NCBI RefSeq assembly: GCF_054482525.1
Contig: NZ_CM137006.1
Length of the DNA: 64,000 nucleotides
Strand: one strand, 5' to 3'
A program made the translations under genes and the position numbers. Of this stretch, positions 11,632-44,166 are shown piece by piece. The notes under the pieces were generated by a model that had not been told where the DNA came from, searched no databases, and was given only the letters and a program-made list of their open reading frames with translations. Position 1 is the stretch's first letter, and each line of letters starts with the position of its first letter.

Positions 11632-12764
11632 GACTGAAGATTCTCCGCAAGCCAGGTCGCCAGTTCGCCCGGCGTCATGGCGGCTATTTGTGCGCCGACA
11701 TTAACCAGCGCCTGGGCCGTATCGTGGTCATAGCAAGGTGTTGCGGTGCTATCGAGCGCCGCCAGTCCCAGTACTTTGATGCCGCTCTGGACACACTTTT
11801 TCACCTGATGCGTCAGTAATGATGATGAACCCCCTTCGTAAAAATCGCTCACGAGGATAATGACGCTTTTCGCTGGTTGTTCAATAAGTTGCCGACCATA
11901 TTCCATGGCACTGGCGATATTGGTTCCGCCGCCTAATTGCACTTTCATTAATAACTCTACCGGATCGGCAACGTCTGCCGTGAGATCAACCACGCTGGTG
12001 TCAAACGCCACCAGATGGGTACGAATACCGGGTAACTGCCATAAACAGGTCGCCATCACCGCTGAGTGGATCACCGAGTCCACCATTGATCCGCTTTGAT
12101 CAACCAGTAAGACCAGTTGCCATTGTTCACTGTGGCGCTTAATGCGGCTGTTAAAGCGGGGGGATTCGATATACAACTTGCCGTGTTGCGGATGCCAGTG
12201 TTGCAGGTTGGCGCGCAGCGTACTTTTGAAATCAAAGTTTCGCGCCAGTGGAATAAATGAGCGGCGACGGCGATCGCGGACACCAGAAAAAGCCTGACGA
12301 ACTTCCTTTGCCAGTCGCGCCATAATCTCTTCAACAACCTGGTGCACTATCCGGCGGGCGGCAGCCAGCACTTCGGGATTCATCAGATGTTTAGTGTGCA
12401 AAACGGCGCGTAGCAGGCTTTCAGAAGGCTGCATACGTTCCAGCACGTCGAGATTCGTCACCACATCTTCAATGCCGTAGCGCAGTACGGCATCGCTTTC
12501 CAGCCGCTCGATCACCTGTTGCGGAAACAGCGTGTGAATACTGTTGATCCACTTAGGGGTGGTGAGATTTGAGTCACCTAATCCACCGGAGCGTTCACCA
12601 CGCTGGAGCCGTTCAGGATCGCGCCCATACAGCCACTCCAGCGCGTGGTCTATCTGCCGGGCATTGTCATCCAGCCCACAAAGGGTCGTTTCTGCCGCTT
12701 CGCCAAGAATTAATCGCCAGCGATGTAGCTCACGGGTGGTCAGAAGATCGTTCAGTTCAGACAT
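11628..12764 (-). CDS. yehP: von Willebrand factor A (VWA) domain protein YehP
   Basis: MIDAS-like DQSGSM motif; start placed at MSELNDLL giving 378 aa. Confidence 0.85.
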   Translation of the reverse strand: MSELNDLLTTRELHRWRLILGEAAETTLCGLDDNARQIDHALEWLYGRDPERLQRGERSGGLGDSNLTTPKWINSIHTLFPQQVIERLESDAVLRYGIEDVVTNLDVLERMQPSESLLRAVLHTKHLMNPEVLAAARRIVHQVVEEIMARLAKEVRQAFSGVRDRRRRSFIPLARNFDFKSTLRANLQHWHPQHGKLYIESPRFNSRIKRHSEQWQLVLLVDQSGSMVDSVIHSAVMATCLWQLPGIRTHLVAFDTSVVDLTADVADPVELLMKVQLGGGTNIASAMEYGRQLIEQPAKSVIILVSDFYEGGSSSLLTHQVKKCVQSGIKVLGLAALDSTATPCYDHDTAQALVNVGAQIAAMTPGELATWLAENLQS

Positions 12765-36142: not shown

Positions 36143-36224
36143 CAACCAAACGACTCGGGGTGCCCTTCTGCGTGAAGGCTGAGAAATACCCGTATCACCT
36201 GATCTGGATAATGCCAGCGTAGGG
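36143..36224 (+). repeat. attL-like direct repeat: orphan copy of the 5' 82 nt of the thiM TPP-riboswitch leader
   Basis: 82/82 identity with 44023-44104, checked by eye. Confidence 0.85.
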
Positions 36225-36307
36225 GGCCAAAATAGTCTTGAAAATTATGTGGTTGTATCTCTTTTTGACCATAAATCATGCTGTTAAGGTACAAAAAGGG
36301 GTCGTTT

Positions 36308-37615
36308 ATGAGGTCAAGAACTCTCCCATACACATTTCAGCGAAACGGTAATTACTATCTACAAATCCGGCTTTCGGATGGTCGGATATACAAAAAATCA
36401 CTTTTTACTGACAGTTATCGCGAAGCATCGGCGTTGATGATTGGCCTTACTCCGCACATTCCTTTCGTTAAATCACTCGCTACTCCGTTGCCGCAATTTA
36501 ATAAGTTTGTTTCAAACTTGATCGCTTCGTCACGTAACGTAATGATTCCGTTGCCACTCCCTCAGCAATTGAACAATATTTCTAAAGAAGTTTTGCAGCT
36601 TCAACCACCAGCCAAACCGGAAAAGGTACTAACACTTGCTGATGCGTGGGCTATGTACAAGGAGGAAAGAGGTCGAAATTGGACAAAATCGATCTCAATA
36701 GCAAATGAGCGTTATATGGAGGTATTGCTTGTTGTCTTGGGAAAAGAAACAGACGTAACGGCAATCACCAAACAAGATATTAAGCGAGTAATGGAAACTG
36801 TCGAAAACTTACCAAAGCGTGTAGTGCAACCGTATAGGTCAATGACTATTCAGCAACTAATCGAATGTGATGATGTGCTGCCAGAGGATTTAGTTGGTGC
36901 TGAGGCTGTACATAAGCACCTTAAAATCTACAAATCGTTATTCAAAACATTTCTGACTGAAAACAAAGATATTCTATCTAAGTCTCCGACTGATGGAATA
37001 GTAGCGGCACCATCCAAAGCTAGGTTTGGTGCATACAGTGCAGCAGAAATGAAAAAATTTGTAGGATGGGCACTAAAGCAGCCTGATGGATGGCAGAAGT
37101 GGATCACTTTGTTGTTGGCGTACACAGGAGCCAGAAGAGGTGAGATTGCTAAACTGGAGAAGTCGCAGATCAAATTTGATGAAGATAGCCAGCGGCACTA
37201 TCTTCTGATCGCGGAAAGAAGGCTGGGTAAAACTGAGAATGCTACAAGACAGGTAGTGATTCATCCCAAACTGATTGAGTGGGGGTTTCTGGATTTTGTT
37301 AACCGCCAATGGAAAGAGAAAATCTTTTCGGAAGTCTCAGGTCGAAATATGTCAAAGATAGGTAAAGTTCTTTCAGATGTTCGTGATCAGCTTGATATTC
37401 CTTATCTTGATGATTATGGGCAGCGGCGCTTGGTGCATAGTTTCCGGCATACTATGATTTCTACTTGTTTAGCTGGTTGGGTGAGTAATTTGGCGCATCT
37501 GCAACAGGTGGTAGGTCATGAAAAGAGTGGAGTAGGGATTACCCAGCGTTATCTGCACACATTCCCACTTTCCACCGTTTGTTATGTGATCGATGGTCTT
37601 TGTTGGGAGACTTAG
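36308..37615 (+). CDS. Tyrosine recombinase/integrase
   Basis: Catalytic residues in TGARRGE, HSFRHT and ITQRYLH; start may be 36278 or 36308. Confidence 0.85.
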   Translation: MRSRTLPYTFQRNGNYYLQIRLSDGRIYKKSLFTDSYREASALMIGLTPHIPFVKSLATPLPQFNKFVSNLIASSRNVMIPLPLPQQLNNISKEVLQLQPPAKPEKVLTLADAWAMYKEERGRNWTKSISIANERYMEVLLVVLGKETDVTAITKQDIKRVMETVENLPKRVVQPYRSMTIQQLIECDDVLPEDLVGAEAVHKHLKIYKSLFKTFLTENKDILSKSPTDGIVAAPSKARFGAYSAAEMKKFVGWALKQPDGWQKWITLLLAYTGARRGEIAKLEKSQIKFDEDSQRHYLLIAERRLGKTENATRQVVIHPKLIEWGFLDFVNRQWKEKIFSEVSGRNMSKIGKVLSDVRDQLDIPYLDDYGQRRLVHSFRHTMISTCLAGWVSNLAHLQQVVGHEKSGVGITQRYLHTFPLSTVCYVIDGLCWET

Positions 37616-37743: not shown

Positions 37744-38469
37744 ATGGTTAAAAATTTAGGCAAAAAATACAAGTATGGCGATCAACCGATAAGAGCTATT
37801 ACCATACAGATAATTGCTAATCAGTTTGGTGGGGCTGCAACGGCTAAGCAGGTAGATGATTATCTTAGAAAGCTATTTCCATCTTATAAAGATAATACTT
37901 GGCTCAATTTAATTGCTAATACAGTTAATTGTAAGCGGAGCTACTGGAGTTTCAACAAAACTGCCCGACGAACTGATGATGTAACTCATCGGCATCATAA
38001 GTATGACCGATTGTTCAAGCGTGGAAATATTTTTGAAATCTATCAACCATCTGTGCACGGTATTTGGGAATTATACCAGGATTTAGAAGGGATGTGGCGT
38101 TATCGTCAAGTAAAATCGGTTTTCGAAGAAGCTGTTGAGACGGCTGCAAAATTATCTTCAGTGGAACGAAAGCAAATTTTAGCGACAGAAAGTAAAATCC
38201 CGGAACTAATCGAAGTAACAACACGAGTTTATAAACGAAGCCCATATGTAGTTGCTGAAGTTCTTTTGAGAGCAAATGGAAAATGTCAATATTGTAAGCG
38301 AGATGCTCCTTTTCTAAAGGAAGATGGTACTCCATTTCTAGAAGTTCATCATATTGAGTGGCTTTCAAAGGGGGGGGAGGACTCTGTGGAAAATGCTATT
38401 GCATTATGTCCTAATTGCCATAGACAAGCCCATTATGGCGATCTGACATTACTACCTGTTAATAAATAG
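37744..38469 (+). CDS. HNH nuclease with McrA-like C-terminal domain and unrecognised N-terminal domain (candidate type IV restriction enzyme)
   Basis: C-terminus CQYCKRDAPFLKEDGTPFLEVHHIEWLSKGGEDSVENAIALCPNCHRQAHYG closely parallels the McrA HNH motif as I recall it. Confidence 0.7.
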   Translation: MVKNLGKKYKYGDQPIRAITIQIIANQFGGAATAKQVDDYLRKLFPSYKDNTWLNLIANTVNCKRSYWSFNKTARRTDDVTHRHHKYDRLFKRGNIFEIYQPSVHGIWELYQDLEGMWRYRQVKSVFEEAVETAAKLSSVERKQILATESKIPELIEVTTRVYKRSPYVVAEVLLRANGKCQYCKRDAPFLKEDGTPFLEVHHIEWLSKGGEDSVENAIALCPNCHRQAHYGDLTLLPVNK

Positions 38470-39004: not shown

Positions 39005-39469
39005 ATGCGAAAGAATCTGAGATACCTTTTTGGACAACGAGTAAAAGAGTTCCGTATAGCTATTGGCTTAAGCCAAGAGGCCTTTGCAGATCGGTGTGGT
39101 TTTGCACGTAGTTATATGAGTCGAATTGAGCGTGGTTGCTCTAATGCATCTCTTGATGCAATTGAGGTTCTGGCTGACGCTTTGCGTATTGAGCCTTGGC
39201 AGTTACTGGCTTCTGATTCAAGGAAACCTGATGATCAGGAGGTACTTGTTCCTTATGCTGCAGATGGGTCGTGTTTTCATCCAGGATTGGCAAGTACTCG
39301 CGATGGTTCGTTTAGAGTAGGGGAAAAATCAGCCCAGAAACGTTTCAGTTCGTTCAATGAAGCTCTCGAATACCTTCGTGGAATGGAAACCGCGAAGTGG
39401 CGTAGGCCTAATGCTAGTGGTAATTGGGGAATTGTATCTGCGGTTAAATGGGATCGACTGAATCAATAA
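39005..39469 (+). CDS. XRE-family HTH protein with about 80-aa C-terminal domain of unknown function
   Basis: N-terminal HTH (LSQEAFADRCGFARSYMSRIERG); start placed at MRKNLRYL. Confidence 0.65.
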   Translation: MRKNLRYLFGQRVKEFRIAIGLSQEAFADRCGFARSYMSRIERGCSNASLDAIEVLADALRIEPWQLLASDSRKPDDQEVLVPYAADGSCFHPGLASTRDGSFRVGEKSAQKRFSSFNEALEYLRGMETAKWRRPNASGNWGIVSAVKWDRLNQ

Positions 39470-39635: not shown

Positions 39636-40187
39636 TTACGCCACCTGCTCTTTCTTGATACGTTGCACCGTCTGCGTGCTGACACTGAAATCTTTTGCTA
39701 CGCTCCGAATTGAGCCACCATTCGCGAGAGCGGCAGCAATTCCCGCTCGATCAATTGCTTTTCCATTACCACGTTTTGCTATACGTCCAGCGGCCTTGGC
39801 TGCGGCGATCCCTTCACGTTGACGCTCAAGCATCATTTCACGTTCCATTTGTGCCACTGCTGCAAGAACTGTGAGCATCATATTCCCTGCGGGAGAGTTC
39901 TTTCCTGTCTTAAAGTCTTCTTTATGGAAATGCACAGACACGCCGCGCTTTGTTAATTGCTCTACAGTTGCCAGAAGGTCGGCTGTATTACGACAAAGGC
40001 GATCAATACTATGGACGTGTAACACGTCACCCTCCCGCACATAGTTCATCATTGCCTCAAACTGTGGGCGCTGAGTGTTCTTGCCTGACGCTTTATCTTC
40101 AAAGACTTTATCAAGAGTTACTCCTGCTAATTGACGGTCTGTGTTTTGTTGCACAGTCGATACCCTAATGTATCCAATATTAGCCAT
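39636..40187 (-). CDS. Serine recombinase (resolvase/invertase family)
   Basis: N-terminal IGYIRVSTVQQNTDRQ with catalytic Ser; C-terminal HTH. Confidence 0.85.
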   Translation of the reverse strand: MANIGYIRVSTVQQNTDRQLAGVTLDKVFEDKASGKNTQRPQFEAMMNYVREGDVLHVHSIDRLCRNTADLLATVEQLTKRGVSVHFHKEDFKTGKNSPAGNMMLTVLAAVAQMEREMMLERQREGIAAAKAAGRIAKRGNGKAIDRAGIAAALANGGSIRSVAKDFSVSTQTVQRIKKEQVA

Positions 40188-40674
40188 CTTCTTTTTTCTT
40201 CTGTATTGATTTGTGTGTAGTGATTATTGAACGTGTTGATTAGGTGTGTAAAGTACTTTTTTCACTACGAAATTCGAAGTTTTTTAGTGTGGTGATTTAG
40301 CCTGCCTTATCACTACACTTCTTGCATGAGAATCATGTAGTTACATTTTGGTAAAATTAGCAAGCTATTAAATTGTGTGTTTATTTTGAAAAAATAATTT
40401 TTGTTGCATTAAAGAAAACTTGTTCGACAAATAATAGGTTGATTTTTGATCAATAATTTCTGATAGTGCTCTGTAAGCCGCATTACACAAGGCGCAGCGA
40501 AAGTGATGTAAAAGTGAAGAAAGCTAACATTGCACTTTTAAACTACTTTTCATTGAATTTTTTAGTATGGAATTACACAGGAATAAGTTAGGGATATTCT
40601 ATGATTTACACAGGGAATATAGGGGGATTATGGTATTACACAGAGTGAGTGCTATGTGATGATTGGTAGTAACG

Positions 40675-40782
40675 GTAGGTCACTGTGAACTAGGGGGGTA
40701 GGTCACTGTGAACTAGGGGGGTAGGTCACTGTGAGCTAGGGGGTAGGTCACTGTGAACTAGGGGGTAGGTCACTGTGAACTA
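40675..40782. repeat. Iteron array: five tandem 22-23 bp repeats (gtaggtcactgtgaactaggggg) next to an AT-rich tract
   Basis: Contiguous direct repeats with no spacers, followed by ataagactataataagactattaataaaacta. Confidence 0.8.
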
Positions 40783-41883
40783 CAATAAGACTATAATAAG
40801 ACTATTAATAAAACTATATTAGATTATTAATTAGATCATAATAATAATATTCTTTATATCTATATATATATGATCTTTTGCCTTCCGGCGTTAGCTTCAC
40901 TCTCTGGCAAGCAGCCTTACTCCGCTACCTTTCGGGCTACGTTGGCTGGCCCGTTCCGCTCACACCGAAAGCAAAGCGTTACTTTCTTCGTGTAACTTCG
41001 TTGGCGGTAACGCCCACGAAGGAATACTATTGCGCTGTGCGCAGTAAGAGTAATCACCTAACCAATCATCTGATTGCTTACGTGTTAACTCTCTCTAACT
41101 CTTAATTACCCTCCTACATTTAATAACTCTCGTTATTCTCTGTAGTTGTGTAATTACTCGAAGAGAGAGCGGCTAAAGCTCAATTACACTCTGCTTTCCT
41201 CGTGTAATTTCACTAAGCCTCAATACAATTTCACTTCCTACATTCTGTAGTCGTGTAATTGTTTTCGGTGGAAAAGCCAGAGGCGACACCGAAAGAGAAT
41301 TCTGATCTTATTAATCTTATCTATCTTAGTTATCTTACTTACTTTATCTACTTTATTATTAATAATAGCTTTATAAGCTCTCTGTGTAGCTCTCTGACGC
41401 AAGAAACAGAGTTCAGGAAGGGAATCACCTTAGAAAAGTGTTCTTTGCGTCATAATGTGTTTTATGAAGGATTCAGAGGTGTTTCATAACAGAGATGTAT
41501 AGAGGATACTTTAGGTAATTAAAAATAAGGGGTCTAAATGCTTCTCTAACAGCATTAAGCAGGGTAGAGAATGGAAACCGCTTTGCCTACATATATAAAC
41601 TCACTACAGGGCTTTACAGAGCGTTTTATAAAGTGACTCTCTGTTTTATATCTACCATCACCTTTTCATATACCTAACAAATACAAAATAAGCCCCTTAA
41701 ATAAGCCTCTGGCGAGCTAAACAGCCATTACATAAGAGAATGTATTGCTTTTATCAAAACCTCGTTAGAACGCGTTTTAGAGCGTTTTAGCGGATAATGA
41801 AGAATAGCACTACACAGGAGAGCACGAATTGCTAAGAAAAAATGTAACTACATGAAAAAGATCAGATTTTTTGTGAAAAGGTA

Positions 41884-41912
41884 TTGACAAACGTCTCTTT
41901 CTGTGCAATAAT
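41884..41912 (+). promoter_or_regulatory. Candidate sigma70 promoter for the downstream operon
   Basis: TTGACA, 17-bp spacer, then TGcAATAAT extended -10. Confidence 0.45.
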
Positions 41913-42038: not shown

Positions 42039-42227
42039 ATGAAATATTTTACTCCACAGGATGTAGTAGAAGCCTGGAAACGTGGTGAGATCAACCGCTT
42101 TAAAGTAAGGATGTATAGAAACACCGCTCGCCGTTGTGGTTATCCAGAGCGTGAAAAATGTTTTGACGATGCACTAAAAATTATTGATGAACTGCGTAAA
42201 GCTGAGAAAGAAGCAGAGAAAAAATAA
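42039..42227 (+). CDS. Small hypothetical protein (62 aa)
   Basis: Strong SD aggagg; first gene of a tightly packed operon. Confidence 0.55.
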   Translation: MKYFTPQDVVEAWKRGEINRFKVRMYRNTARRCGYPEREKCFDDALKIIDELRKAEKEAEKK

Positions 42228-42249
42228 TAGACAAGAGAAGGAGAAAACT

Positions 42250-42417
42250 ATGAGCGAAACTAAGAAACCAATTCCGCGCACTTACCTACACGTTGACCCT
42301 GAAATCTTCAAGGTTTTATTTGCTGAAGCCAAGAAAAGGCAAATTATGGTCAGTGATTTGATGTTAGAAATCATTACTGAAGCAGCAGAGAACATCAAAC
42401 AAAAAAAGGGTAAGTGA
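42250..42417 (+). CDS. Putative ribbon-helix-helix DNA-binding protein (55 aa)
   Basis: SD aaggag; beta-strand RTYLHVDPEIF followed by two helices, typical of CopG/Arc-type RHH. Confidence 0.55.
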   Translation: MSETKKPIPRTYLHVDPEIFKVLFAEAKKRQIMVSDLMLEIITEAAENIKQKKGK

Positions 42418-42468
42418 TCCTCATTCACTTTAGTAGCGCATTAAGCGTGATTTATAAGGAGATTTTTA

Positions 42469-43158
42469 ATGATTAATCAACTAACTTTTACAAAACACTA
42501 TGACACGTTTGATAATGTATCAAAGATTTATTCTGATAAATTCCCTCAAGGAAAAGATTTAGATCTATTACATATTGTGCTTTATTTTCGATTCCTTAGT
42601 TATCAGGAAAACAACCTTAATTGTTATGAAAGTCACGAAACATTAGCTAAGATTTTTAAGTCTTCAGCGTCAACAATTAAACGTAAGATAAACGATCTTA
42701 AAGAGATGGGATTATTAGAAACATCCCCACATCCTGATCCGTATATTTCATCTTTGATTTACAATGCTCTCCCTCTCACAGATGCACATATTACTCCCCC
42801 AGGAGAATCATCACTCTCTGATCTTTCTGAGGCAGAAGAAGCACAGGAACAACCTAAAGGCCATAAACAGCCTTCTTTTGATGTTCTTGATGATTGGGAT
42901 ACGCCTTTACCCTGGGAGACGGAAGAAACACCTGTTTCATCAAGTGAAAAAGTAGCTAATGATAATGAGGAGGATGTGTTAGAGAATTTTGCCTCTCTTA
43001 TCATCCAGGAGAAACACACAAGAACAGGAGGAGCATCATTTATTGAGTTTGCAAATTCACTAGCTTGTAGATACGGGCTAAAACGACCAAATGGTATTGA
43101 GGCATATTTTTCTAAGAATTACCCAAATATATACGATGACTTTGATATTCCATTTTAA
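42469..43158 (+). CDS. HTH protein with acidic linker and SSB-like C-terminal tail (229 aa); possible replication or recruitment protein
   Basis: SD aaggag; HTH-like ETLAKIFKSSASTIKRKINDLKEMGLLE; acidic low-complexity middle; C-terminus YDDFDIPF resembles the E. coli SSB tip DFDDDIPF. Confidence 0.6.
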   Translation: MINQLTFTKHYDTFDNVSKIYSDKFPQGKDLDLLHIVLYFRFLSYQENNLNCYESHETLAKIFKSSASTIKRKINDLKEMGLLETSPHPDPYISSLIYNALPLTDAHITPPGESSLSDLSEAEEAQEQPKGHKQPSFDVLDDWDTPLPWETEETPVSSSEKVANDNEEDVLENFASLIIQEKHTRTGGASFIEFANSLACRYGLKRPNGIEAYFSKNYPNIYDDFDIPF

Positions 43159-43169
43159 TAAGGAGGGTT

Positions 43170-43415
43170 ATGATTCAATATTTAGTAAAAAATCAAGTAG
43201 ACAGAATTCAGTGTAATGACACAGGAAAACGCATCTACGAGACACTTGTTTACCTCTATAAAGGAAAGCCAACACCGCTAAAATATAGCGATGTGTTACA
43301 TCGAGCAGGTTGCTCTGAGTCAGGTTTAAAATTCTGGCTGAAACAGCTATCAAATTTCGGTGTTATTGAAATGAAAGAGCTGTCTTTTTCTACATTCAAC
43401 CTCAAGAAGTTATAG
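43170..43415 (+). CDS. Small winged-helix-like protein (81 aa)
   Basis: SD aaggagg; last gene of the operon. Confidence 0.5.
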   Translation: MIQYLVKNQVDRIQCNDTGKRIYETLVYLYKGKPTPLKYSDVLHRAGCSESGLKFWLKQLSNFGVIEMKELSFSTFNLKKL

Positions 43416-43580: not shown

Positions 43581-43820
43581 TTATAACTTCGTGGTGTCAA
43601 GTCCAGCAGCTTTGAGTCGCTCGGTAAGATTTCTCATTTTGCTGAACTCTGTACCAAAGCTGGCTTTAAGTCCTACACCTTCACAAAACTCTTTTGCCGT
43701 AACCTTTTTCAGATGGTCAGCATATTTGATCATCTGGAGGTGCATTTCCATCGTTTGGCTATTTCGTGGTGCGCTGCTAATGGCTTGCTTAATGTTCTCG
43801 TAGATCTGGGTTTCTGTCAT
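43581..43820 (-). CDS. Small helical hypothetical protein (79 aa), convergent with the operon
   Basis: ORF only; low-GC context. Confidence 0.45.
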   Translation of the reverse strand: MTETQIYENIKQAISSAPRNSQTMEMHLQMIKYADHLKKVTAKEFCEGVGLKASFGTEFSKMRNLTERLKAAGLDTTKL

Positions 43821-44022: not shown

Positions 44023-44166
44023 TATAGAGATTCAACCAAACGACTCGGGGTGCCCTTCTGCGTGAAGGCTGAGAAATACCCGTATCACCTGATCTGGATA
44101 ATGCCAGCGTAGGGAAGTCACGGACCACCAGGTCATTGCTTCTTCACGTTATGGCAGGAGCAAACT
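44023..44166 (+). promoter_or_regulatory. TPP riboswitch (thi-box) in the thiM leader
   Basis: Contains ctgagaaatacccgtatcacctgatctggataatgccagcgtagggaa immediately upstream of the thiM start codon. Confidence 0.9.

What the first reader, a model, noticed from the sequence alone, without database searches (positions are those of the whole stretch)
42039..43415. Low-GC four-gene operon with consensus Shine-Dalgarno sites, an RHH regulator and a protein ending in an SSB-like tail
All four genes have AGGAGG-type RBSs at ideal spacing and sit in low-GC DNA, suggesting a foreign donor. Gene 2 looks like a ribbon-helix-helix regulator. Gene 3 (229 aa) combines an N-terminal HTH, an acidic disordered middle and a C-terminus YDDFDIPF that mimics the SSB C-terminal tip, which docks PriA, RecQ, ExoI, the chi subunit and other partners. 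It could recruit host SSB partners to the island origin or act as a decoy. I do not recognise this combination as a described system.
Basis: partly seen in the sequence, partly recalled or inferred. Interest (0 to 1): 0.7.

Follow-up and report, generated by a model that had tools for sequence, protein, structure and literature searches.

The report
Satellite-island replication initiator with SSB-like tail
The four genes are the replication module of a small mobile island inserted next to E. coli thiM, and its origin-binding initiator ends in a conserved copy of the tip that host SSB uses to dock replication and repair enzymes, which suggests an untested way of recruiting the host replisome.

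Summary
Four tightly packed, low-GC genes (42039-43415) carry unusually strong Shine-Dalgarno sites. Gene 3 is a winged-helix domain, a disordered acidic linker, a small helical domain and the tail YDDFDIPF.

The operon lies in a 7.9-kb island bounded by an 82-bp duplication of the thiM TPP riboswitch. Upstream is a plasmid-like origin with no DnaA box: five 22-bp iterons, 11-bp AT-rich repeats and a hairpin-rich block.

Gene 3 resembles phage and plasmid replication initiators only weakly (PHROG, Foldseek RepA_N/DnaD). Across 22 related islands, three N-terminal domain types each pair with their own iteron type, whatever the C-terminal type. The [IL]-P-F tip survives at 25-40% identity and on different C-terminal domains.

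Best reading: an iteron-binding initiator whose tip mimics SSB-Ct to recruit host SSB partners. Partner binding is inferred, not shown. The ribbon-helix-helix call for gene 2 is unverified.

Side finding: virulent Justusliebigvirus phages fuse captured copies of this initiator's DNA-binding domain to a GIY-YIG-type nuclease domain. One copy is 100% identical in DNA over 385 nt. This parallels ICP1 Odn against the Vibrio PLE satellite and suggests the islands parasitise phages.

The parts
36143..36224 (.). attL: left copy of the 82-bp perfect direct repeat. It lies in a partial TPP riboswitch copy (36146-36241).
   Evidence: the repeat finder family D2. Rfam TPP 61.3 bits. RefSeq annotates two TPP riboswitches.
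36278..37615 (+). Island tyrosine integrase.
   Evidence: ORF. RefSeq product 'tyrosine-type recombinase/integrase'.
37744..38469 (+). HNH protein resembling a type IV methyl-directed restriction enzyme; probable defence cargo.
   Evidence: PADLOC mREase_IV, 1.3e-23. NCBIfam HNH hits.
39005..39469 (+). XRE-family HTH regulator with an extra C-terminal region; candidate island master repressor.
   Evidence: NCBIfam and PADLOC XRE / control-protein hits.
39636..40187 (-). Small serine recombinase (183 aa), divergent from the origin region. Related islands have a short tyrosine recombinase at this position, so a multimer-resolvase role is likely.
   Evidence: NCBIfam resolvase/invertase hits. Same position in relatives.
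40333..40349 (.). Left copy of a 17-bp perfect inverted repeat (TCATGTAGTTACATTTT, dyad ATGTA-GT-TACAT). Its partner is at 41839-41855.
   Evidence: the repeat finder I8. No inverted junction in 5,426 genomes.
40671..40787 (+). Iteron array: five copies of GGTAGGTCACTGTGAACTAGGGG at 22-23 bp spacing.
   Evidence: the repeat finder D1. TRF period 22, 4.8 copies, 96% matches. Iteron type co-varies with gene 3 N-terminal type in 22 loci.
40779..40870 (.). AT-rich stretch with about six 11-bp repeats (ACTATAATAAG); putative DNA-unwinding element.
   Evidence: TRF. Sequence.
40870..41110 (.). GC-richer block of hairpins, including the palindrome TGCGCTGTGCGCA (41031-41043). The palindrome is present once, in the same orientation, in 16 related loci that together cover all three iteron types. 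Function unknown; a single-strand initiation site is one possibility.
   Evidence: DNA folding z = -3.1 (+ strand) and -4.1 (- strand). Pattern search. Alignment A5.
41839..41855 (.). Right copy of the 17-bp inverted repeat, 29 bp upstream of the operon's -35 box; candidate operator.
41884..41912 (+). Best sigma-70-like promoter in the region: TTGACA, 17 nt, AATAAT, with TG before the second hexamer (11 of 12).
   Evidence: Promoter scan.
42039..42227 (+). Gene 1, 62 aa, conserved, function unknown.
   Evidence: Homologues at the same position in divergent elements. No family hit.
42250..42417 (+). Gene 2, 55 aa. Its strand-helix-helix pattern is compatible with ribbon-helix-helix, but this is unverified.
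   Evidence: Homologues. No Pfam hit. MazE7 at E = 0.045.
42469..43158 (+). Gene 3, 229 aa: putative replication initiator.
- Winged-helix DNA-binding domain, nt 42496-42801.
- Invariant LPLTDAHITPP, nt 42769-42801.
- Acidic disordered linker, nt 42802-42963, holding a degenerate internal SSB-Ct-like motif at nt 42877-42915.
- Four-helix C-terminal domain, nt 42964-43140.
   Evidence: Pfam HTH_36, 4.8e-5. PHROG replication-initiation families, best 1.9e-9. Structure model. Foldseek top hits RepA_N initiators 4pql/5kbj/4pt7 and DnaD-N 2v79. Alignment A1.
43132..43155 (+). SSB-Ct-like tip YDDFDIPF, the last 8 codons of gene 3.
   Evidence: Sequence. Conservation of [DE]-F-[DE]-[IL]-P-F. Compare SSB-Ct MDFDDDIPF (PMC3159472).
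43170..43415 (+). Gene 4, 81 aa, small probable winged-helix protein. It lacks the last ~11 residues present in relatives.
   Evidence: Homologues of 89-95 aa. Weak ArsR/PefI/CodY winged-helix hits. No Pfam hit.
43581..43820 (-). 79-aa 'HTH-like' protein of unknown function; last gene of the island.
   Evidence: PHROG 30666, 1e-56. RefSeq name.
44033..44114 (.). attR: right copy of the 82-bp repeat, inside the complete thiM TPP riboswitch (44036-44132).

Best explanation
The four genes are the replication module of a 7.9-kb integrative island inserted in the thiM TPP riboswitch. The island belongs to a family of 8-13 kb phage-satellite-like elements in Escherichia and relatives.

Proposed mechanism:
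1. A strong promoter at 41884 drives genes 1-4.
2. The gene 3 product binds the five upstream 22-bp iterons through its N-terminal winged-helix domain and opens the adjacent AT-rich repeats.
3. The island has no DnaA box, helicase, loader or primase, so the initiator must bring in outside replication proteins.
4. It does so through short linear motifs on its disordered linker and C-terminal domain. The main one is the terminal [DE]-F-[DE]-[IL]-P-F tip, which copies host SSB-Ct (DFDDDIPF).
5. Several tips held side by side at the iterons would imitate an SSB-coated gap and attract proteins with an SSB-Ct pocket. Candidates are PriA (then PriB/DnaT/DnaC-DnaB), the chi subunit of the clamp loader, or DnaG.
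6. Genes 1, 2 and 4 are small accessory or regulatory proteins of the module.

Shown here: the island and its att sites, the origin anatomy, the domain architecture, co-variation of N-terminal domain and iterons, and conservation of the tip.

Inferred: initiator activity, and every protein partner of the tip.
For: Island context:
- 82-bp perfect att repeats, integrase, two TPP riboswitch copies.
- The operon matches 708 of 5,426 complete E. coli genomes, and the origin-plus-operon segment also lies in ~12-kb thrW islands with a capsid gene.

Origin:
- Iterons at 22-bp phasing followed by 11-bp AT-rich repeats.
- No DnaA box between 40188 and 42038, either with one mismatch to TTATCCACA or with TTWTNCACA.

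Gene 3 as initiator:
- Nine of its ten best PHROG hits are replication-initiation or DnaD-like families, best 1.9e-9.
- Pfam HTH_36.
- The longest Foldseek alignments are to RepA_N initiators and a Rep-DNA complex (4pql, 5kbj, 4pt7) and to DnaD-N.

Specificity coupling:
- In 22 loci, N-terminal types A/A', K and I go with iteron types A, K and I. This holds in mosaics whose C-terminal domain, gene 4 and hairpin block come from another backbone (L025, L028, L030).
- Genes 1-2 and the promoter region, which lie between the two swapped patches, stay 93-98% identical.

Tip:
- 125 of 159 retrieved sequences and 17 of 17 complete IMG/VR homologues end in [IL]PF. Many of the remaining 34 retrieved sequences are fragments.
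- 14 of 16 divergent full-length representatives end in F, and 11 of those end in PF.
- The tip is kept on different C-terminal domain types (P0132/P0157; L007 type).
- Several homologues also carry an internal PDFDDLPF or PDLDDIPF in the linker.
- The features needed for SSB-Ct docking are a terminal Phe, a penultimate Pro (ssb113 is a Pro-to-Ser change) and preceding acidic residues (PMC3159472). The Pro and Phe are the most conserved residues of the tip, and acidic residues precede them in most members.

Independent sign that the N-terminal domain targets island DNA: phages fuse it to a nuclease domain.
Against: - Similarity to known initiators is weak: Foldseek E about 0.02, no Pfam RepA_N hit, and NCBI names the protein a transcriptional regulator.
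- Iterons plus a winged-helix protein would also fit a repressor and its operators.
- The C-terminal domain has no recognisable fold relative.
- In the models the residues just before IPF are helical and abut a folded domain, whereas the SSB tip sits at the end of a long flexible linker.
- Some family members lack the tip or have a degenerate one: P0143 and P0150 lack it; P0130 ends GTPF, P0128 DIKF and P0135 YIAF.
- This island has lost the structural genes of its larger relatives, and gene 4 is shortened, so the module could be decaying.
- No binding or replication experiment exists, and no paper in the searched library describes such a tip on an initiator.
Confidence: 0.6

Rival explanations
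1. Gene 3 is the origin-binding initiator, but its tip does not dock host SSB partners. Instead it binds a protein of the helper phage or another island protein such as gene 4, or it is simply part of the C-terminal fold. The likeness to SSB-Ct is then convergent or coincidental.
For: - The tip follows directly on a predicted helix of a folded domain.
- Gene 4 type always goes with the C-terminal domain type.
- PLE RepA, the closest functional analogue, is thought to recruit the phage's own replisome (PMC8263062).
- Phages of the genus implicated here carry many replication genes of their own.
Against: - The tip is kept on different C-terminal domains, which argues against a purely structural role.
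- The conserved positions are those that matter for SSB-Ct docking.
- In the two thirds of phage inny that were scanned, only two short ORFs (43 and 67 aa) end in LPF and neither has an acidic run before it, so no phage SSB-like tip was seen for it to imitate.
- The link between gene 4 and the C-terminal domain is explained equally well by shared backbone ancestry.
Confidence: 0.2
2. The tip is a decoy. The protein titrates SSB-interacting enzymes such as PriA, RecQ, ExoI and chi away from host or phage DNA. This would interfere with helper-phage replication or protect island DNA, rather than assemble a replisome on the island.
For: - Satellites commonly interfere with their helpers; PLE is an example (PMC8263062).
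- The operon has very strong translation signals, which suits an abundant protein.
- Some homologues carry two SSB-Ct-like motifs.
Against: - A decoy needs no sequence-specific DNA-binding domain that co-varies with iterons next to an AT-rich element.
- No defence-family signal was found for the operon.
- The island has no other candidate initiator.
Confidence: 0.1
3. Gene 3 is only a transcriptional regulator, as NCBI annotates it. The repeats are operators and the operon is a regulatory cassette. Any replication of the island is driven from elsewhere.
For: - The source name is 'transcriptional regulator'.
- The best PDB sequence hits are MarR/ArsR/GntR-type regulators.
- The evidence for initiator homology is weak.
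Against: - The repeats form a phased array beside AT-rich 11-mers, 1.1-1.2 kb upstream of the operon promoter, which is not an operator layout.
- PHROG hits are almost all replication initiators.
- The disordered linker with conserved terminal motifs is typical of a recruiting protein.
- The island has no other replication gene, yet it carries a resolvase-like recombinase as plasmids do.
Confidence: 0.1

Closest known systems
PLE RepA and its iteron origin (Vibrio cholerae phage satellite), with the ICP1 counter-weapon Odn
   Same: - An initiator whose N-terminal DNA-binding domain co-varies with the iterons in a non-coding region.
- A C-terminal part shared across specificity types and thought to recruit the replisome.
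- Replicon modules swapped between elements.
- A lytic phage that fuses a captured copy of the initiator's DNA-binding domain to a GIY-YIG-superfamily (T5orf172-type) nuclease domain.
(PMC8263062; here.)
   Different: - No detectable sequence match to Pfam RepA_N.
- Different host and a different phage genus.
- The phage protein here carries two captured DNA-binding domains.
- An SSB-Ct-like tip did not come up in the PLE paper passages read here.
- Nothing here has been tested experimentally.
RepA_N-family plasmid initiators of Gram-positive bacteria (PDB 4pql, 4pt7, 5kbj) and the DnaD N-terminal domain (2v79)
   Same: A winged-helix N-terminal domain that binds iterons, plus a separate C-terminal domain. 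These entries give the longest Foldseek alignments of the gene 3 model, 113-117 columns for the RepA_N entries. From my own knowledge, not checked here: the C-terminal domain of these proteins deals with host replication proteins.
   Different: The match is weak (E about 0.02, TM about 0.45 on the target) and there is no Pfam RepA_N hit. The C-terminal domain is unrelated and has no fold match.
C-terminal tip of E. coli SSB (SSB-Ct, MDFDDDIPF)
   Same: An acidic run, an aromatic residue and a terminal I-P-F with a free carboxylate, attached to the rest of the protein by a disordered linker. The penultimate Pro and the terminal Phe are the critical residues in SSB (PMC3159472) and are the best-conserved residues here. 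The PMC3159472 methods list a T4 gp32 carrying the SSB-Ct, which suggests the tip can be grafted onto another protein.
   Different: Gene 3 has no OB fold and is not an ssDNA-binding protein by any test here. A small folded helical domain sits between the linker and the tip. The acidic run is shorter (DDFD against DFDDD).
Replication proteins that recruit partners through short terminal motifs: RK2 TrfA with its beta-clamp motif, and the T7 gp4 acidic C-terminal tail that resembles the gp2.5 tail (recalled from my own knowledge, not checked here)
   Same: An initiator or helicase carries a short linear motif that copies the docking motif of another replisome protein.
   Different: The motif and the presumed targets differ. 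The gene 3 tip does not fit the clamp motif QL[SD]LF.

Membership tests
Iteron-type replication initiator (works like plasmid Rep, lambda O, PLE RepA) | Sequence-specific winged-helix DNA-binding domain related to known initiators | tested here: inconclusive
   PHROG replication-initiation families, best 1.9e-9. Pfam HTH_36, 4.8e-5. Foldseek RepA_N/DnaD-N hits at E about 0.02. All are weak to moderate.
Iteron-type replication initiator (works like plasmid Rep, lambda O, PLE RepA) | Array of phased direct repeats beside an AT-rich unwinding element, close to the initiator gene | tested here: met
   Five 22-bp repeats at 40671-40787, followed by 11-bp AT-rich repeats up to about 40870.
Iteron-type replication initiator (works like plasmid Rep, lambda O, PLE RepA) | Initiator specificity domain and iterons change together between related replicons | tested here: met
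   Three N-terminal domain types pair with three iteron types in 22 loci, including mosaics.
Iteron-type replication initiator (works like plasmid Rep, lambda O, PLE RepA) | Origin plus initiator support autonomous replication | not testable with these tools
   Needs a mini-replicon experiment.
Pfam RepA_N (PF06970) | Significant match to the family profile | tested here: not met
   The Pfam scan of gene 3 lists no RepA_N hit even at E <= 10. Not filed as a member.
Bacterial SSB | OB-fold ssDNA-binding core | tested here: not met
   The model is a winged helix plus helical bundle with no OB fold. No SSB family hit.
Bacterial SSB | C-terminal acidic tip ending I-P-F | tested here: met
   YDDFDIPF at the C-terminus, conserved in the family.
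SSB-Ct mimic (binds SSB-interacting proteins) | Physical binding of the tip to the SSB-Ct pocket of PriA, chi, ExoI, RecQ or another partner | not testable with these tools
   No complex-prediction or binding assay was available.
Ribbon-helix-helix regulator (gene 2) | Match to an RHH profile or fold | tested here: inconclusive
   No Pfam hit for gene 2 or three homologues. MazE7 antitoxin at E = 0.045. The sequence pattern is compatible by eye only.
Phage satellite (PICI, cf-PICI, P4-like, PLE) | Integrase, own replicon and no full set of virion genes | tested here: met
   Larger relatives carry only a capsid protein (lambda E type), a tape-measure-like protein and a Dit-like protein.
Phage satellite (PICI, cf-PICI, P4-like, PLE) | Induction, replication and packaging that depend on a helper phage | not testable with these tools
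   Only indirect evidence: 385 nt of 100% DNA identity between gene 3 and a Justusliebigvirus-like contig, and nuclease fusions in those phages.
Phage satellite (PICI, cf-PICI, P4-like, PLE) | Hallmark genes of a named family (AlpA and Pri-Rep for PICI; Sid/Psu/Delta/alpha for P4; portal, protease and terminase for cf-PICI) | tested here: not met
   None were found by PHROG or NCBIfam in the window island or in the APEC O1 element.
Anti-phage defence or toxin-antitoxin operon | Match of the operon's proteins to known defence families | tested here: not met
   PADLOC gives nothing for genes 1, 2 and 4 and only generic winged-helix hits for gene 3. The neighbouring HNH gene does match a type IV restriction enzyme.
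Invertible DNA switch (Hin/Gin type) | Both orientations of the segment between the inverted repeats occur in nature | tested here: not met
   A synthetic inverted junction has no full-length match in 5,426 complete genomes.

The most novel reading that the evidence does not exclude
The initiator displays an array of SSB-Ct mimics at its iterons. A DnaA-box-free origin then looks like an SSB-coated gap and assembles a PriA-type restart primosome, or tethers chi/Pol III or primase directly. This would be a route of helicase loading not described for any replicon.

The replicon would belong to an undescribed family of E. coli satellites of virulent Justusliebigvirus phages. Those phages fight back with Odn-like nucleases built from captured initiator domains, which drives the swapping of iteron and N-terminal-domain specificities.
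Probability: 0.3. Interest if true: 0.85.

Novelty: new variant of a known kind. Interest (0 to 1): 0.68.

Why it matters
How plasmids and satellites without a helicase loader get a helicase onto their origin is known for only a few model replicons. An initiator carrying the universal SSB docking tip would show that this hub motif can be moved onto a double-strand origin-binding protein to capture host enzymes. It would also give a simple genetic handle: one Pro-to-Ser or Phe deletion.

The element is common. The operon matches about 13% of complete E. coli genomes. It carries defence cargo and appears to be in an arms race with virulent coliphages of a kind used in phage-therapy collections. 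That would make it a second, independent example of the PLE/ICP1 type of conflict, this time in a tractable host.

Tried and rejected
- **Invertible segment.** The 17-bp perfect inverted repeats next to a serine recombinase suggested a 1.5-kb switch containing the origin. A synthetic inverted junction found no genome with that arrangement, so I rejected it. The sites may be operators.
- **DnaA-dependent origin.** No DnaA box lies in the non-coding region.
- **Fold of the C-terminal domain.** A separate model (pLDDT 89) gave no PDB match better than E = 2.
- **Genes 2 and 4.** Pfam found nothing significant, either alone or through homologues. PDB profile searches gave only weak hints.
- **Defence or toxin role of the operon.** PADLOC was negative.
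- **Plasmid origin.** The origin region and gene 3 each match only two PLSDB records. One is an island copy inserted in an IncF plasmid. The other is a 4.9-Mb record that looks like a chromosome.
- **Known RNA.** Rfam finds only the two TPP riboswitches.
- **Phage SSB as the model for the tip.** Two thirds of phage inny has no protein ending in an acidic run followed by [IL]PF. The middle third was not scanned.
- **Functional link between gene 4, the C-terminal domain and the hairpin block.** These co-vary, but two shared backbones explain it, so I claim no coupling.
- **Literature.** Searches for an SSB-tip mimic on an initiator, or for satellites of Justusliebigvirus, found nothing relevant.
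- **IMG/VR.** The hits are mostly predicted proviruses in isolate genomes, so they do not show packaging.
Full report
**1. What is there**

The window is E. coli chromosome. The finding lies between rcnR and thiM, in a low-GC stretch (0.35-0.38 against about 0.52 in the flanks).

Four + strand ORFs occupy 42039-42227, 42250-42417, 42469-43158 and 43170-43415, with gaps of 22, 51 and 11 nt. RefSeq annotates the same four genes as hypothetical proteins in strain PCN033 and others.

Their Shine-Dalgarno matches to TAAGGAGGTGA are 8, 6, 7 and 8 nt long, with 3-7 nt to the ATG. Most of the 33 neighbouring genes have 3-5 nt, and only thiD reaches 8.

Gene 3 ends NIYDDFDIPF. Among 247 six-frame ORFs of 40 aa or more in the window, it is the only one ending in an acidic stretch plus PF.

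**2. Context: a small integrative island**

An 82-bp perfect direct repeat (36143-36224 and 44033-44114) brackets 7.9 kb. Both copies lie in TPP riboswitch matches. The right copy is complete and serves thiM.

Inside the repeats, in order, are:
- a tyrosine integrase (36278-37615);
- an HNH protein matching type IV methyl-directed restriction enzymes (PADLOC 1.3e-23);
- a small secreted-looking protein;
- an XRE regulator;
- a 183-aa serine recombinase on the minus strand;
- 1.85 kb without genes;
- the four-gene operon;
- a 79-aa HTH-like gene.

Sixty-four complete E. coli genomes carry at least 80% of this island. The operon itself matches 708 of 5,426 genomes, 210 of them over at least 80% of the query.

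In APEC O1 and others, the same non-coding region and operon sit in a ~12-kb element at tRNA-Thr. That element continues into four small genes, a lambda-E-type major capsid protein, a 609-aa tape-measure-like protein, a Dit-like protein and an integrase. Metagenomic and genomic relatives have the same order.

The window's island is thus a shortened member of a family of 8-13 kb elements that have a replicon and a few virion genes but no portal, protease or terminase. Gene 4 in the window lacks the last ~11 residues seen in relatives.

**3. The non-coding region is an origin**

- It holds five copies of GGTAGGTCACTGTGAACTAGGGG at 22-23 bp spacing (40671-40787; TRF 4.8 copies, 96% matches).
- About six 11-bp AT-rich repeats follow directly.
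- Next comes a block of hairpins at 40870-41110. DNA folding gives z = -3.1 and -4.1 on the two strands.
- The block includes the palindrome TGCGCTGTGCGCA, present once and in the same orientation in 16 related loci.
- No DnaA box occurs anywhere between 40188 and 42038.
- The best promoter-like site in the region (TTGACA, 17 nt, AATAAT, with an upstream TG) is at 41884-41912, 126 nt before gene 1.

**4. Gene 3**

Sequence and structure evidence:
- Pfam gives only HTH_36, at 4.8e-5.
- PHROGs gives fifteen weak-to-moderate hits. Nine of the best ten are replication-initiation, O-like or DnaD-like families, best 1.9e-9.
- A search of 1.84 billion representative proteins found only 39 relatives.
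- An AlphaFold model built on 16 of them shows a confident winged-helix domain (aa ~10-110), a disordered acidic stretch (117-165) and a confident four-helix domain (166-224).
- Foldseek against the PDB gives no strong hit. The longest alignments are to RepA_N plasmid initiators, including a Rep-iteron complex (4pql, 5kbj, 4pt7). DnaD-N (2v79) is also listed, among many MarR-type regulators.
- The C-terminal domain modelled alone (pLDDT 89) has no fold relative.

The strongest evidence that the protein acts on the repeats is comparative. Across 22 loci there are three N-terminal domain types, starting MINQLTF (A), MSKIKLIR (K) and MIKNIKT (I). There are also three repeat types: TAGGTCACTGTGAACTA, GTAACGATnnGTTACA and CCTAGGAAATGATTTCC.

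Type goes with type, including in three mosaics where the C-terminal domain, gene 4 and the hairpin block belong to another backbone (L025, L028, L030). The two swapped patches are separated by the promoter region and genes 1-2, which stay 93-98% identical. They must therefore have been exchanged together by selection, not by linkage. More distant relatives have yet other repeat arrays at 22-bp phasing. This is the pattern described for the PLE satellite replicon (PMC8263062).

**5. The tail**

E. coli SSB ends MDFDDDIPF. Docking of its partners needs three things (PMC3159472):
- the terminal Phe side chain and carboxylate;
- the penultimate Pro, whose change to Ser is the ssb113 defect;
- the preceding Asp residues.

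In the gene 3 family:
- 125 of the 159 retrieved sequences end in [IL]PF, and many of the rest are fragments.
- All 17 complete IMG/VR homologues end in [IL]PF.
- Among 16 full-length representatives at 21-48% identity, 14 end in F and 11 of those in PF, usually preceded by [DE]-F-[DE].
- The tip is kept on C-terminal regions with no evident similarity to each other: type A ...YFSKNYPNIYDDFDIPF, the L007 type ...LREKSEIYDSIPF, and the P0132/P0157 type ...EDEFDPIPF and ...GEFEDLPF.
- N- and C-terminal types are shuffled in all combinations seen.
- Several homologues carry a second, internal copy in the linker (PDFDDLPF, PDLDDIPF, PDLDDLPF). The window protein has a degenerate version, FDVLDDWDTPLPW.
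- An invariant LPLTDAHxxPP closes the winged-helix domain.

The protein thus looks like a DNA-bound hub of short linear motifs.

What the tip binds is not shown. I could not run complex prediction or binding assays, and literature searches found no initiator described with such a tip.

Points against a strict SSB analogy:
- The residues before IPF are predicted helical and abut a folded domain.
- A few members lack the tip or have a degenerate one.

**6. Most likely mechanism**

The island encodes no helicase, loader or primase and its origin has no DnaA box, so the initiator must import them. The simplest reading is that iteron-bound initiators present several SSB-Ct-like tips next to the melted AT-rich repeats. 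These would attract proteins with an SSB-Ct pocket. PriA is the obvious route to DnaB loading without DnaA, and chi or DnaG are alternatives. The neighbouring hairpin block could serve as a single-strand initiation site, but that is speculation.

My probabilities:
- about 0.8 that the operon is the replication module and gene 3 its initiator;
- about 0.85 that the tip is a functional motif;
- about 0.5 that it binds host SSB partners.

Rivals are a phage or island partner for the tip, a decoy function, and a purely regulatory protein.

**7. Genes 1, 2 and 4**

All three are conserved in position across divergent elements but match no family.
- Gene 2 has a strand-helix-helix pattern compatible with ribbon-helix-helix. 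Its best PDB sequence hit is MazE7 at E = 0.045, so the assignment stays unverified.
- Gene 4 gives weak winged-helix hits.
- Gene 4 type follows the C-terminal domain type of gene 3, but shared backbone ancestry explains this.

**8. A phage counter-weapon**

The only phage among 50,697 records with a gene 3 relative is the virulent Justusliebigvirus 'inny'. Its gp184 (368 aa) has three parts:
- a first winged-helix domain 88% identical to the type K initiator N-terminus;
- a second one 75% identical to type I;
- a C-terminal domain matching PHROG 'endonuclease' (3e-19) and Pfam MUG113 (5e-4), with T5orf172 weakly. T5orf172 belongs to the GIY-YIG superfamily.

It has no IPF tail.

A 97-kb metagenomic viral contig is 98-99% identical to inny on the side that is present, across the neighbouring genes up to gene 184. 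The contig ends inside its gp184 homologue. In place of the first domain it carries a sequence 100% identical in DNA over 385 nt to the window's gene 3 (aa 1-128).

This is the architecture of ICP1 Odn, which uses a captured PLE RepA domain to cut the PLE origin (PMC8263062). It implies three things:
- these phages meet these islands in the same cells;
- the N-terminal domain targets island DNA;
- specificity swapping in the islands may be driven by this pressure.

I found no paper linking this phage genus to satellites.

**9. Verdict**

The element is best filed as a new variant of a known kind: an iteron replicon of a satellite-like island whose initiator carries an SSB-type docking tip. Partner binding, replication and helper dependence remain to be shown.

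Noticed in passing
L008:2914-4017 (phage inny MN850601, gene inny_184); L027:8001-8511 (IMGVR_UViG_3300045988_074297): Virulent Justusliebigvirus phages encode a protein made of two captured island-initiator DNA-binding domains (88% and 75% identical to two island types) fused to a GIY-YIG-superfamily nuclease-like domain. A near-identical metagenomic phage has swapped the first domain for one that is 100% identical in DNA over 385 nt to the window's gene 3. This looks like an E. coli counterpart of ICP1 Odn.
   Followed up: partly
window 40333-40349 and 41839-41855: A 17-bp perfect inverted repeat with an internal dyad (ATGTA-GT-TACAT) flanks the whole origin region beside a serine recombinase. 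No genome shows the inverted arrangement, so its role (operator, resolution site or other) is unexplained.
   Followed up: partly
window 40870-41110, palindrome at 41031-41043: A hairpin-rich block lies next to the AT-rich repeats. A ~50-nt stretch around TGCGCTGTGCGCA is conserved across otherwise different origin cores. It could be a single-strand initiation, nicking or packaging signal.
   Followed up: partly
window 42877-42915, and homologues P0129, P0151, P0157, P0128, P0132: A second, internal SSB-Ct-like motif (PDFDDLPF / PDLDDIPF) sits in the disordered linker of several gene 3 homologues and is degenerate in the window protein. An invariant LPLTDAHxxPP (nt 42769-42801) is also of unknown function.
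   Followed up: no
window 36143-36224 and 44033-44114; L012: The thiM TPP riboswitch is used as an attachment site. The island duplicates 82 bp and leaves a complete riboswitch in front of thiM. A distant family member in another genome is inserted at the same place.
   Followed up: partly
window 37744-38469: The island carries an HNH protein matching type IV methyl-directed restriction enzymes, which is probable anti-phage cargo. In the annotated PCN033 locus (L001), the coordinates to the left of the origin are shifted by 23 nt relative to the window. That is about one iteron length, so the strains may differ in iteron copy number.
   Followed up: no
L002:10200-22300 (APEC O1) and L003, L009, L010, L014: The larger ~12-kb relatives at tRNA-Thr encode a lambda-E-type capsid protein, a tape-measure-like protein and a Dit-like protein, but no portal, protease or terminase. 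They fit none of the named satellite families (PICI, cf-PICI, P4-like, PLE).
   Followed up: partly
L002:12338-12404; L003:12296-12361 and 12481-12570: Some type A islands also carry short arrays of the type I repeats, and L003 also carries type K repeats. These may be relics of specificity swaps or sites for cross-talk between co-resident islands.
   Followed up: no
L007 (plasmid NZ_CP126938.1, 33359-45658): A copy of the element, with its origin region interrupted by an IS3-family insertion, sits on a conjugative IncF plasmid of an avian pathogenic E. coli strain. This gives the family a second route of spread.
   Followed up: no
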